A DNA stretch of 64,000 nucleotides, from the NCBI RefSeq assembly GCF_044324785.1, contig NZ_CP172127.1; one strand, 5' to 3'. This stretch comes from Escherichia coli (lineage in GTDB: Bacteria; Pseudomonadota; Gammaproteobacteria; Enterobacterales; Enterobacteriaceae). Made by a program: the position numbers. Positions 38,001-41,000 of the stretch are shown here, piece by piece (within the stretch, counting starts at the first letter, position 1; each line of letters opens with the position of its first letter).

Positions 38001-41000
38001 CGCAGGACTACAATATTAAAAACGGTTTGCCGTCAGAAACCTATATTACTTGCGCAGAAGCCAACGAAATGGCAAAAACTGACAGCGCACAGGTTGCAGA
38101 AATTGTTGCGGTAATGGGTAATGCCAGCGTTGCCAGCCGTGATTTAAAAATTGAGCAATCTCCGGAACTGAGCGCCAAAGTGGTAGAAAAACTGAATCAG
38201 GTTTGCGCTAAAGACCCGCAAATGCTGTTGATCACGGCAATTGATGACACCATGCGTGCTATCGGCAAAAAATAATATTTAATATGTTACCGCGTCGATG
38301 AATTCGACGCGGTATTTTAGCTAACGGGGATCAGAACTTATATTTCAGGCCCACCATCACTGCGGTGTCATTGTAGCCATTATCACCCAGCTGCACGCCC
38401 ACATTACCCCAGACGCTGGCCGCCGGATTCAGATTGCCATTTACGCCAAGTTTAATTTCCCCCAGATTACGCGCCCCGTCTTGTTCAACTTTCACACCGT
38501 TCATTGAGACAGCAAAATCTTTACTGTTATGGATCCAGTTCATTTCAACAAAAGGTTCAAAGTCGTCACCGTGCGGACCGCTGTTTTTCTCCTGAGTACG
38601 AATAAAGGTGCGGAAGCCGAGTCGGGTCTGGATGTTGTTATTTGCGTCACTCTCAATACGTGAGCCATTGGCTTCCGTGTGCGCATTATGATCGACGCCC
38701 ATCCAGATAGCCTGTGCCTGTGGCTGGAAGATCCACGTATATTTCGCCGCTTCCAGACCAAAGGATTTATTCAGGGCAAAACCGTAACCCGCTTCCAGCG
38801 AGACGGTTGCACCTTTCGCGCTATAGGATTCATAGGCTAATTCATCTCCTTTCACCGAGTTTTTAAACCAGCTATATTGCGCCCAGGCGTCAATGTATGC
38901 GCCTTTTTTACTGATGTCATCGGCAAACCAGGTGGCATACAGCCCTGCGCTATAGCCTCTGACACTCCCTTTCGAACGATAATCCGACAAGCTGGAATGA
39001 GTTGAGTTGTAGTCGCGGGCATAACCAGCCATCACTCCCAAACGCCAACTGTCACTGTCGGTAAAACCACCGGTTAACAGATCCGCCCCTAACTGCGAGA
39101 CGTAGCGATGCGAGGTCGTTCTCAACTGTCCGTTGCTGTCACGCCAGGCATTATGCCCGCCAATTTGACGTAGCCAAAGTCGGCTTGAACGCTCCTGTTC
39201 AGTTACAGGATCGATGTAGCGCGTTTCACCTGCACGATCGTTCAGACGCATAACAAAAAGAGTGTTAGCGGCTGCCAGGTTGGCGACGTAACTTCCAGCT
39301 TCGGGGCGCAGAACGGGGGTAGGCGCAACAGTAGGCGCTGAACTTCCTCCGGAGTTTGTTTCACCGCCGCTCGTTGCCTGGAAGTTAGTCAGATACCAGT
39401 TTTTATTGGTCGCTTCGGTATTACCTCGGGTTAATGAATATTCGTAGGCACCGGCGAAAATCCTCGAATCCTTAATAAATTCCCCATTTGATTCCCCCTC
39501 AACGCTGATAATCTCTATCCCATTTAACGTGTAAGCCCCGCTGCCCCCAGCATTGGTAACTTTTACTCGGGTTGTTCCGGAGGTATTTCCATTAATAACA
39601 ACTTTATCAGTAGCTGAATTATCATCACCCAATTCAGTTCTGAGATGCAATACGCCATTATTACCAACGTAATTTTCAGTTATTGTTAACCTTGTTGGTT
39701 CGAAATCCTTTCCATCTGCCCGGGAAATATAGACCGTACTATTGTCAACCGTGAGCTTGCTCACCGTTGAGTCAGTTTTAATATCCCAGGTACTATTATC
39801 TGAAAGCGACAGATAGGTATGAGTGCTATCATCTGTTGAAAGATTGGCTGAACCCGTTATTTTTGAATTAGATGCATCGATGGCCAAATGACCTTTAATA
39901 TTATTAATAAAAACATCTGCAGCCGATGATACCTCACTATCCGTAATGGTCACGTTACTCGTCTCATTTTTATTGTATAGGATTTCATTTGCTGACCGTA
40001 GTGAGCTACCAGATAAAATATCTACCGTTGCTTCCTGACCATTTATGGAAGACTCCAGCACAACTCCAGCCCCCTGATGCGCGACTGCAAATGTATTTTT
40101 CAGCGTCACCGTGCCGCCATTATAAATTTTAGCAATCGCGGCGTCAGGACCCGTTGTATAAATTTCTCCCTGGTTAAATGAAACTGTCCCCTGGCGAGCA
40201 GCGATGGCATGAGCATTGTCCCCATGCGTGGTAATATCAACATCGGTTAATGTAACGCTGGCATTGGTATAATCAAGCTTGCTACCAGCCTTGACGACAG
40301 TGCCATTAGCGTAAGCGGCATAACTTTCTGTTCCGTGGGTTGTTATCTCCCCTTTTGCCATATCCAGTTTTGCTTTGGCGTTATTTTCATTACTTCCTGT
40401 ATCGGCAGTACTTTCTTCATCAAGAGAAGATACACACGCACGCGCGCTTCCGGGAGATGCACAAGCAAGAACGCCGACTGCGTGATTACCCGCAGTAACA
40501 ATAAAAGTATTACCTTCGTCAGATAAATGGGGGTTAACCGAACCGTCAGTGTTGACTCTTATTATGGTATCAGTATTCAGGTTTCCATTCGTTTGACTTA
40601 GCAAACCAATTGAGTAATCCCCCGTTGTGACAATCGTATTATTACCCTGCAAAATAACTGCACCGCCATATTCACTTACGACTGCGCTAGCTGTATATAC
40701 TGTGCTTAGAGGACTATTGCCAGAAGGATATAAACCACCCGTTGTTACAATGACGCCTTTGTTAATGGTTAAATTGCTACCCTCTCCTGCAACAGATACC
40801 CCGTAACTTCCATTACCCGTTGTTATAACTAGCGCATTATCAATATCTTTTACTTCTCCATCTTTTATTGCCACAGCATGTTTATATTCATCGTGCTGAA
40901 TAAACTGTTCAGCATATGCATTACCCACCGCCAAAGCAATAAGTCCTAAACTAAACCCGGGGAGTTTTTTCAGTTTCATAGATTAACCATCCATTCATTG

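What the first reader, a model, noticed from the sequence alone, without database searches (positions are those of the whole stretch)
38331..40979. Uninterrupted 882-aa autotransporter where K-12 (from memory) has a disrupted ycgH
The ORF has an intact signal peptide, a long repetitive passenger domain and a complete C-terminal barrel ending in KYKF. An intact adhesin-type autotransporter next to the ycgZ-ymgABC / bluRF biofilm-regulatory cluster may matter for surface phenotypes in this strain.
Basis: partly seen in the sequence, partly recalled or inferred. Interest (0 to 1): 0.4.

Follow-up and report, generated by a model that had tools for sequence, protein, structure and literature searches.

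The report
Intact alternative-allele autotransporter at ycgH locus
The 882-residue gene is a real, complete outer-membrane autotransporter at the E. coli ycgH locus, but it is an already catalogued alternative version (the "ECIAI39_1904 family") with a very different surface-exposed part, not simply K-12's broken ycgH without its lesions.

Summary
Window 38331-40979 (minus strand) is one uninterrupted 882-aa ORF. It has a 23-aa signal peptide, a predicted beta-helix passenger, an autochaperone domain, a helical linker and a complete 12-strand barrel ending in KYKF. It lies at the ycgH locus, where K-12 has a pseudogene with a TAA at codon 507 and a 1-bp deletion.

The interpretation needs correcting. 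Upstream region, signal peptide and barrel are 97-100% identical to K-12. The passenger is a different allele: 38% aa identity over aa 24-403 and 53% in the autochaperone. NCBI names this protein "ECIAI39_1904 family autotransporter adhesin", and the exact sequence is already public on at least 159 contigs.

About 1783 of 5426 complete E. coli genomes carry this allele type and 2113 carry the K-12 type; ST131 and UTI89 carry degraded remnants. Most carriers of this type are disrupted. I found at least six different lesions, and roughly 10% of carriers appear intact, including this window.

A divergent Escherichia species has a third N-terminal passenger variant at the same locus, so the locus is a conserved chassis with swapped passengers. 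No study of its function was found in the searchable literature. An adhesin role is inferred only. Ordinary and already known: low interest.

The parts
38331..40979 (-). Complete CDS: an 882-aa type Va (AIDA-I-type) autotransporter of the ECIAI39_1904 family, at the ycgH locus.
   Evidence: ORF list. The gene in strain N3 is 99.8% identical and carries this name. The exact protein is in public databases under this name on 159 contigs.
40911..40979 (-). Signal peptide, aa 1-23 (MKLKKLPGFSLGLIALAVGNAYA), with predicted cleavage after A-Y-A.
   Evidence: Sequence features. It is 23/23 identical to K-12 and intact YcgH. Divergence between alleles starts immediately after it, at gene nt 69.
39771..40910 (-). 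Variable N-terminal passenger, aa 24-403: a right-handed beta-helix and the allele-specific module.
   Evidence: No Pfam or NCBIfam domain. The AF2 passenger model has pLDDT 86.8 and pTM 0.87. Best Foldseek hits are pertactin, Ag43, IcsA, UpaB and Vag8. It is 38-41% identical to the YcgH-type and E1V33-type passengers. dN/dS within the allele type is 0.6-1.5.
40434..40463 (-). The only two cysteines, C173 and C182 (motif GVLAC-ASPGSARA-C), at the base of a low-confidence acidic loop (about aa 176-202).
   Evidence: Cys positions. Both are invariant across 19-20 homologues, down to 26% identity. Low pLDDT and no secondary structure in the loop that follows.
39387..39770 (-). Autochaperone / pertactin-like C-terminal passenger region, aa 404-531.
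   Evidence: Pfam AC_1 at 404-516 (E=6e-30) and Pertactin at 406-531. IcsA autochaperone 3ml3 matches. It is 53-57% identical to the YcgH type, while YcgH and E1V33 are 96% identical to each other here. dN/dS is 0.03-0.14.
39180..39386 (-). Spacer plus alpha-helical linker, aa 532-600. The 3' boundary of allelic divergence lies at about aa 550-583.
   Evidence: Helix 559-573 in the full-length model. Nucleotide mismatches to K-12 become sparse after gene nt ~1750.
38331..39179 (-). 12-stranded beta-barrel translocator, aa 601-882, plus the stop codon; the protein ends KYKF.
   Evidence: Pfam PF03797, TIGR01414 and AIDA-I 4mee. 12 long strands in the model. aa 584-882 are 296/299 identical to intact YcgH.
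40799..40802 (-). GGGG run (gene nt 178-181), intact here. A 1-bp deletion at this site in sequenced strain 2000-3039 truncates the protein at codon 70; the same split annotation appears in most other carriers.
   Evidence: 16 of 21 evenly spaced carriers show the split-ORF annotation. The resulting 773-aa ORF lacking a signal peptide is among the most frequent products of this allele type in the protein clusters read.
40905..40946 (-). Codons 12 (GGA), 22 (TAT) and 25 (CAG), all sense codons here. They are nonsense (TGA, TAA, TAG) in several of the closest relatives.
   Evidence: Lesion catalogue for 11 loci; coordinates.
40980..41378 (-). AT-rich (about 30% GC) 399-bp upstream intergenic region between ymgF and the gene. 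It is conserved across allele types and is the presumed regulatory region.
   Evidence: Sequence and composition. Identity is 386/399 to K-12 and 391/399 to an intact-YcgH strain. The consensus scan found no sigma-70 site on the minus strand here.
38288..38314 (.). GC-rich hairpin (11 pairs) between the convergent ymgD and autotransporter genes, resembling a bidirectional terminator.
   Evidence: Terminator scan.

Best explanation
The gene is a complete classical (type Va, AIDA-I-type) autotransporter at the chromosomal ycgH locus. It carries the ECIAI39_1904-type passenger, not the K-12 YcgH-type passenger. The inferred mechanism follows. The 23-aa signal peptide sends the protein through Sec. 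The C-terminal 12-strand barrel (aa ~601-882) is inserted into the outer membrane with the linker helix (aa ~559-573) in its pore. The passenger is threaded out C-terminus first and folds on the autochaperone (aa 404-531) into a beta-helix of about 500 residues, which stays exposed on the cell surface. The allele-specific N-terminal part (aa 24-403) is the likely ligand-binding or antigenic surface, with its conserved Cys173-Cys182 loop. The most likely role is adhesion, aggregation or biofilm formation. At the population level the locus is a conserved chassis (upstream region, signal peptide, linker and barrel) that carries at least three passenger modules about 40% identical to one another. 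Both common E. coli modules are frequently knocked out by independent mutations. The window has one of the minority intact copies. Shown here: the anatomy, the allele structure and the lesion spectrum. Inferred: secretion, surface display and adhesin function. Unknown: expression.
For: - **Intact ORF and domains:**
- **Structure:** high-confidence beta-helix passenger and a full-length model with linker helix and 12 strands. The best structural neighbours are autotransporter passengers, led by pertactin (TM 0.51-0.60), then Ag43, IcsA, UpaB and Vag8.
- **Synteny:** the gene lies between ymgD and ymgF-pdeG, as K-12 ycgH does.
- **Mosaic identity profile against K-12 and intact YcgH:** signal peptide 100%, aa 24-403 38-40%, autochaperone 53-57%, aa 584-882 99% to intact YcgH and 90% to K-12, lowered by its 3' frameshift. 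The upstream region is 386/399 identical.
- **Naming and prevalence:** NCBI gives the family name. 1783 genomes carry this allele type and 2113 the K-12 type, out of 5426.
- **Independent lesions:** 1-bp deletion, Q25*, G12*, Y22*, E594* and a 98-bp deletion in 8 of 11 sequenced loci.
- **Third variant:** Escherichia sp. E1V33 carries a third N-terminal passenger variant at the syntenic locus, with a YcgH-type autochaperone.
- **Selection:** strong purifying selection on the autochaperone, linker and barrel (dN/dS 0.03-0.14). The N-terminal passenger is at 0.6-1.5.
Against: - No experimental data on this protein were found in the searchable literature. ECIAI39_1904 appears once, as a presence/absence marker. 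ycgH appears only as a pseudogene or an integration site.
- No promoter was identified upstream.
- The K-12 RNA polymerase binding signals near ycgH appear to lie in K-12's own 5' coding sequence. The only near match to the reported hexamers is at gene nt 278-308 of the K-12 allele, and there is none in the window's upstream region. They cannot be transferred to this allele.
- Rampant pseudogenisation and a near-neutral dN/dS in the N-terminal passenger are also what a dispensable gene would show.
- Adhesin function rests only on family resemblance.
Confidence: 0.8

Rival explanations
1. One reading: this is the ancestral, undamaged form of K-12's ycgH, the same protein with K-12's lesions absent.
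For: The locus and gene length are the same, 2649 versus 2648 nt. The signal peptide is identical and the barrel nearly so. K-12's 3' frameshift corresponds to a single T at window 38406.
Against: The passenger is about 50% identical at the DNA level and 38% at the protein level, with many indels. A true intact YcgH exists: 887 aa, about 96.5% nt identical to K-12's passenger, in strain 50579417 and on many contigs. NCBI names the two proteins differently.
Confidence: 0.05
2. The ORF is intact but is a silent, dispensable gene on its way to decay. It is not expressed or not selected in this lineage, and its intactness reflects only the absence of a hit so far.
For: About 90% of carriers of this allele type appear disrupted, by at least six different lesions. 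The K-12 type, the ST131 remnant and the neighbouring autotransporter remnant are also decayed. The upstream region is AT-rich, which typically attracts H-NS (an H-NS flag is given for the K-12 spacer in PMC3946193). No consensus promoter was found. N-terminal passenger dN/dS is 0.6-1.5.
Against: dN/dS is 0.03-0.14 in the autochaperone and linker, and as low as 0.07-0.13 in the barrel in most comparisons. The exact 882-aa protein recurs on at least 159 contigs, and another intact variant on 904. Cys173/Cys182 and a set of Gly/Thr positions are invariant across distant genera.
Confidence: 0.3
3. The passenger is a surface-displayed enzyme of the pectin-lyase fold (polysaccharide lyase or hydrolase) rather than an adhesin.
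For: One UniRef name reads 'putative pectin lyase fold'. Weak Foldseek hits to polygalacturonases, alginate lyases and phage tailspikes, at E 0.02-0.3. There is a strongly conserved motif block, TASAVVSE[YF]GG ... GLLSQ ... GVLAC.
Against: Autotransporter adhesin passengers score six or more orders of magnitude better than any enzyme. There is no Pfam or NCBIfam catalytic domain. The conserved residues are mostly Gly and Thr, typical of beta-helix turns.
Confidence: 0.07
4. The GGGG run near the 5' end is a slipped-strand phase-variation switch, and the window is simply in the ON state.
For: In the one split-annotated genome sequenced here, the lesion is a 1-bp loss in this run, and the same split annotation is the commonest state among carriers.
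Against: A run of 4 G is far shorter than known contingency tracts (my own knowledge). Several lineages have GGTG at this site. The split annotation is uniform across the ~96%-identity class in the evenly spaced sample. The one frameshifted copy sequenced differs by 3-4% from every intact allele examined, which points to a fixed mutation rather than switching.
Confidence: 0.02

Closest known systems
ECIAI39_1904 family autotransporter adhesin (NCBI PGAP name; listed as a VFDB autotransporter gene in PMC5654935)
   Same: The exact 882-aa sequence carries this name in NCBI and UniRef. The gene in strain N3 is 99.8% identical at the same locus. Length and domain order are the same.
   Different: Nothing structural. 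This copy is intact, whereas most genomic copies of the family are pseudogenes.
YcgH of E. coli (pseudogene in K-12; intact 887-aa form in other strains)
   Same: Same chromosomal locus, upstream region, signal peptide, linker and barrel, at 97-100% identity. The passenger is homologous overall, with shared motifs and the same Cys pair.
   Different: The N-terminal passenger is 38-40% identical and the autochaperone 53-57%, with several indels, including about 30 extra N-terminal residues in YcgH. It is a separate allele class, not the same protein.
AIDA-I (diffuse adherence adhesin; translocator structure 4MEE)
   Same: The autochaperone, linker and 12-strand barrel align end to end, with E=5e-84. 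Both belong to the type Va architecture.
   Different: The AIDA-I passenger repeats are absent and no adjacent heptosyltransferase gene is present. Of the two acidic residues I recall as needed for AIDA-I autoprocessing (D878 and E897, from memory, unverified; one search found no source), the Asp aligns with Asp but the Glu aligns with Ala. AIDA-type self-cleavage is therefore doubtful.
Pertactin (P.69, Bordetella; 1DAB/2IOU)
   Same: It is the closest solved passenger by global shape (TM 0.51-0.60). Both are beta-helices of about 540 residues with protruding loops, and the Pfam Pertactin domain matches aa 406-531.
   Different: Sequence identity is 13-15%. There are no RGD or proline-rich repeat loops. 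The species and locus differ.
Mosaic allele classes of other E. coli autotransporter adhesins, such as Ag43 and UpaH
   Same: A conserved translocator is combined with divergent passenger classes that vary between lineages. Papers in the library describe Ag43 functional variation (PMC8993888) and large upaH/upaG variation (PMC8281228).
   Different: Here the replaced block is the whole mature passenger, with breakpoints at the signal-peptide cleavage site and the linker. The autochaperone can recombine separately, as the E1V33 mosaic shows.

Membership tests
Type Va classical autotransporter (AIDA-I type) | N-terminal Sec signal peptide | tested here: met
   MKLKK, a hydrophobic core and AYA|EQ. 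The h-region has a mean hydropathy of 1.6. This was judged by sequence inspection; no dedicated predictor was available.
Type Va classical autotransporter (AIDA-I type) | Beta-helical passenger with a C-terminal autochaperone | tested here: met
   AF2 pLDDT is 86.8 and the model is all-beta solenoid. Foldseek finds pertactin, Ag43, IcsA and UpaB at E about 1e-8. Pfam AC_1 matches at E=6e-30.
Type Va classical autotransporter (AIDA-I type) | Alpha-helical linker plus a complete 12-strand C-terminal barrel with a terminal aromatic residue | tested here: met
   PF03797 covers model positions 1-254 of 255, and TIGR01414 covers 7-432 of 432. The 4mee alignment reaches the last residue. The model has helix 559-573 and 12 long strands, and the protein ends ...KYKF.
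Type Va classical autotransporter (AIDA-I type) | Actual secretion and surface display of the passenger | not testable with these tools
   This needs expression plus protease shaving or immunodetection.
ECIAI39_1904 family autotransporter adhesin (NCBI) | Full-length near-identity to proteins carrying that name | tested here: met
   The exact sequence is named so. Named members are 94-99% identical over 100% of the length. The N3 gene is 99.8% nt identical.
ECIAI39_1904 family autotransporter adhesin (NCBI) | Match to a dedicated family model above its cut-off | tested here: inconclusive
   No model of that name appeared among the NCBIfam hits. Only generic or other-family models matched, all below their cut-offs except TIGR01414. 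The name probably comes from a BLAST rule that is not in this library.
YcgH (K-12 gene product) | Same chromosomal locus and shared translocator | tested here: met
   Synteny is ymgD | gene | ymgF-pdeG. aa 584-882 are 296/299 identical to intact YcgH.
YcgH (K-12 gene product) | Same passenger, at the allelic identity expected within a species | tested here: not met
   aa 24-403 are 38-40% identical, and the DNA of the divergent core (window 39675-40911) is unalignable by blastn.
Self-associating autotransporters (Ag43 / AIDA-I / TibA) | Passenger-passenger self-association that causes aggregation | not testable with these tools
   Only a general fold resemblance is available. Ag43 has TM 0.24-0.28 despite E about 1e-8.
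Self-associating autotransporters (Ag43 / AIDA-I / TibA) | Adjacent heptosyltransferase (aah/tibC-type), as for AIDA-I and TibA | tested here: not met
   The flanking genes are ymgD/ymgG and ymgF/pdeG. No glycosyltransferase is present.

The most novel reading that the evidence does not exclude
The ycgH locus may be a long-lived passenger-cassette polymorphism. A fixed expression and export chassis carries at least three N-terminal passenger modules about 40% identical to one another, and the autochaperone recombines independently. These modules would be kept in Escherichia by diversifying or frequency-dependent selection, for example from host antibody or phage pressure. Repeated gene knock-outs would be the other way of escaping that pressure. 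The invariant Cys173-Cys182 loop would mark a shared binding site for a ligand not yet identified.
Probability: 0.25. Interest if true: 0.45.

Novelty: already known. Interest (0 to 1): 0.2.

Why it matters
The practical value is a correction. Anyone comparing this strain with K-12 should not treat the gene as "repaired ycgH". It is a different surface protein on the same export scaffold, so its antigenic and binding properties cannot be carried over from YcgH. The locus also shows clearly how E. coli varies its surface. It does so by swapping whole passengers on a conserved translocator, and by repeated independent inactivation. This copy is one of the minority that are intact, so it is a usable template for the first functional test of this uncharacterised family. 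No new kind of system is involved.

Tried and rejected
1. **Transferring K-12 promoter data.** PMC4447067 lists a sigma-S ChIP peak at 1219400-1219949 labelled ycgH. PMC3946193 lists a TTGACA-19-TATAAG site with an H-NS flag for ymgF>ycgH. The window has no match in its upstream region, even with 2 mismatches. In K-12 the only near match lies inside the K-12-specific passenger coding sequence. These data were not transferred.
2. **Consensus promoter scan.** It found nothing on the minus strand in 40980-41378.
3. **Rfam scan of 34-48 kb.** No RNA family was found.
4. **Tandem-repeat search in the gene.** None was found.
5. **Phase variation at the G run.** Rejected.
6. **Word-indexed protein search with the passenger alone.** It returned only E. 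coli sequences. The exhaustive representative search found just 45 relatives among 1.84 billion proteins. The non-Escherichia ones were 29-36% identical and unnamed, from Providencia, Enterobacter, Edwardsiella, Budvicia, Pseudomonas, Stenotrophomonas and Achromobacter. No donor of the allele was identified.
7. **Literature.** No functional paper on YcgH or ECIAI39_1904 was found. Wells et al. 2010 is not held. The AIDA-I autoprocessing residues could not be verified.
8. **One NCBIfam scan failed** on a size limit.
9. **dN/dS of 1.52 between two intact alleles in the N-terminal passenger** (52 non-synonymous and 11 synonymous differences). By a rough binomial estimate of my own it is not clearly above 1, so positive selection is not claimed.
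Full report
**1. Observation**

Window 38331-40979 holds a single 882-codon ORF on the minus strand, running from ATG to TGA.
- The N-terminus MKLKKLPGFSLGLIALAVGNAYA|EQ has the features of a Sec signal peptide.
- Pfam places an autochaperone (AC_1, aa 404-516), a pertactin-like region (406-531) and the autotransporter beta-domain (601-860, full model length).
- TIGR01414 covers aa 430-882.
- The solved AIDA-I translocator 4MEE aligns from aa 430 to the last residue, at E=5e-84.
- The protein ends KYKF.
- There are no DNA tandem repeats. "Repetitive" applies only to beta-helix rungs with a recurring [IV]-x-T-T-G motif.

**2. Structure**

An AlphaFold2 model of aa 24-560, built from a 20-sequence alignment, is confident (pLDDT 86.8, pTM 0.87). 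It is an all-beta solenoid.
- Foldseek against the PDB puts autotransporter passengers first. These are Ag43, pertactin (TM 0.51-0.60), IcsA, UpaB, Hap and Vag8, at E from 1e-8 to 1e-3.
- Pectin-lyase-fold enzymes appear only at E above 0.02.
- The full-length model (pLDDT 82.6) adds a linker helix at aa 559-573 and 12 long barrel strands between aa 600 and 881.
- The protein has only two cysteines, C173 and C182. Both are invariant in homologues down to 26% identity. They sit at the base of a poorly ordered acidic loop.

**3. Locus**

The 14.6 kb around the gene are 99.6% identical to E. coli strain N3. There the gene is annotated "ECIAI39_1904 family autotransporter adhesin", between ymgD and ymgF-pdeG.
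- K-12-lineage genomes have ycgH at exactly this position, flagged "frameshifted; internal stop".
- The K-12 lesions are a TAA at codon 507 and a 1-bp deletion at gene nt 2574, opposite window base 38406.
- The ymgC-ariR-ymgA-ycgZ and bluF-bluR genes lie further upstream, beyond ymgF and pdeG. They are nearby but not adjacent.

**4. The gene is not K-12's ycgH minus its lesions**

The identity profile against K-12 and against an intact 887-aa YcgH (strain 50579417) is mosaic.

| Region | Identity to the YcgH type |
|---|---|
| Upstream intergenic region | 386/399 and 391/399 nt |
| Signal peptide | 23/23 aa |
| aa 24-403 | 38-40% aa; DNA of the divergent core (window 39675-40911) unalignable by blastn |
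| aa 404-531 | 53-57% aa |
| aa 584-882 | 296/299 aa |

The replaced block is therefore the whole mature passenger. Its boundaries are the signal-peptide cleavage site and the start of the linker.

A degenerate DNA-pattern scan of one genome per species found a syntenic locus in Escherichia sp. E1V33. Its N-terminal passenger is a third variant, 41% identical to each of the other two. Its autochaperone is 96% identical to the YcgH type. The N-terminal module and the autochaperone can therefore recombine separately.

**5. Population picture in 5426 complete E. coli genomes**

- 1783 genomes carry the window's passenger type at 80% coverage or more, and 2113 carry the K-12 type. ST131 and UTI89 carry short degraded remnants.
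- In an evenly spaced sample of hits, 16 of 21 carriers of the window's type show the split annotation that a 1-bp deletion in the G run at gene nt 178-181 produces in sequenced strain 2000-3039. That lesion stops translation at codon 70 and leaves a 773-aa ORF with no signal peptide.
- The table name "ECIAI39_1904 family" does not imply intactness. Eleven loci of this type were fetched, ten of them carrying that name. Three were intact (N3, F6326-C1, VCSW5).
- The other eight carry lesions: the 1-bp deletion, G12 to TGA, Y22 to TAA, Q25 to TAG, E594 to TAA, or a 98-bp deletion.
- Only 2 of the 21 evenly spaced carriers are intact, which gives a rough estimate of 10% with wide uncertainty.
- In the larger protein collection the window's exact sequence occurs on 159 contigs, and another intact variant on 904. 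Intact copies are a minority but not rare in absolute terms.

**6. Selection**

Nei-Gojobori estimates compared the window with seven other alleles of the same type.

| Region | dN/dS |
|---|---|
| Autochaperone and linker | 0.03-0.14 |
| Barrel | 0.07-0.46 |
| N-terminal passenger (aa 24-403) | 0.6-1.5 |

The value between the window and intact F6326-C1 in the N-terminal passenger is 1.52, from 52 non-synonymous and 11 synonymous differences. The export machinery is conserved. The exposed part evolves at a near-neutral or diversifying rate, and these data cannot separate the two.

**7. Relatives and literature**

- The N-terminal passenger family is small: 45 representatives with E at or below 0.001 among 1.84 billion. 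Apart from Escherichia, the full-length hits are unnamed autotransporters at 29-36% identity. They come from Providencia, Enterobacter, Edwardsiella, Budvicia, Pseudomonas, Stenotrophomonas and Achromobacter.
- In the searchable literature ECIAI39_1904 appears once, as a virulence-database gene absent from ST131 but present in ST38, ST405 and ST648 (PMC5654935).
- ycgH appears only as a pseudogene or a chromosomal integration site. It is absent from a functional review of autotransporters (PMC9289746).
- The K-12 RNA polymerase binding signals near ycgH seem to lie in K-12's own passenger coding sequence and were not transferred.
- No promoter was found by consensus scan in the AT-rich upstream region. 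No Rfam family was found.

**8. Mechanism**

The inferred pathway follows from established knowledge of type Va secretion. It runs through Sec export, barrel insertion with the linker helix in the pore, and C-to-N passenger translocation and folding seeded by the autochaperone. The outcome is surface display of a beta-helix of about 55 kDa.
- The allele-specific aa 24-403, with the conserved disulfide loop, is the likely binding or antigenic surface.
- AIDA-type self-cleavage is doubtful. The residue aligned to what I recall as AIDA-I Glu897 is Ala (residue identities from memory, unverified).
- An adhesin, aggregation or biofilm role is inferred only from family resemblance. Whether the gene is expressed is unknown.

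**9. Verdict**

The gene is a known, annotated family member. What this analysis adds is the chassis-plus-swapped-passenger structure of the locus, the spectrum of independent knock-outs, and the finding that this copy is among the intact minority. Interest is low.

Noticed in passing
window 36671-37114 (minus strand): A 147-aa ORF is the last ~115 residues of a different autotransporter barrel (TIGR01414 positions 319-432 of 432). It is unrelated in sequence to the 882-aa protein's barrel and is annotated as a partial pseudogene in N3 and K-12. In strain VCSW5 the same position holds a 3.4-kb frameshifted ypjA/ehaD-like gene. A second autotransporter therefore once sat about 1.2 kb from this one and has decayed.
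   Followed up: partly
window 41000-62000: The best full-length match to any of 5426 complete E. coli genomes is only 98.4% over 21 kb of core genes (pdeG, phoQ, purB, icd, pepT). N3 matches at 99.6% around the autotransporter. The window's lineage seems poorly represented among complete RefSeq E. coli genomes.
   Followed up: no
window 41729-43252 (pdeG, minus strand): The EAL-domain phosphodiesterase gene pdeG is intact here (507 aa). It is truncated or frameshifted in ST131, PD23 and F6326-C1, so the whole ymgF-pdeG-autotransporter neighbourhood is prone to decay.
   Followed up: no
window 38288-38314: An 11-bp-stem GC-rich hairpin followed by a T run lies between the convergent ymgD and autotransporter genes. 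It is a plausible bidirectional terminator.
   Followed up: no
L018 5470-8109 (Escherichia sp. E1V33, NZ_RHJI01000009.1): The syntenic 880-aa autotransporter has a third N-terminal passenger variant, 41% identical to both E. coli types. Its autochaperone is 96% identical to E. coli YcgH, which is higher than its barrel identity (90%). This suggests recent exchange of the autochaperone segment between species.
   Followed up: partly
L002 8341-8371 (K-12-lineage ycgH, gene nt 278-308): The only near match to the promoter hexamers reported for ymgF>ycgH in PMC3946193 lies inside K-12's passenger coding sequence, not in the intergenic spacer. This would fit the sigma-S ChIP peak, which by my estimate of K-12 coordinates covers the first ~500 bp of ycgH (PMC4447067).
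   Followed up: partly
window 40980-41009: Some family members are annotated 10 codons longer (892 aa), from an upstream TTG. In the window that extension is closed by an in-frame TGA, so the ATG at 40979 is the only usable start.
   Followed up: partly
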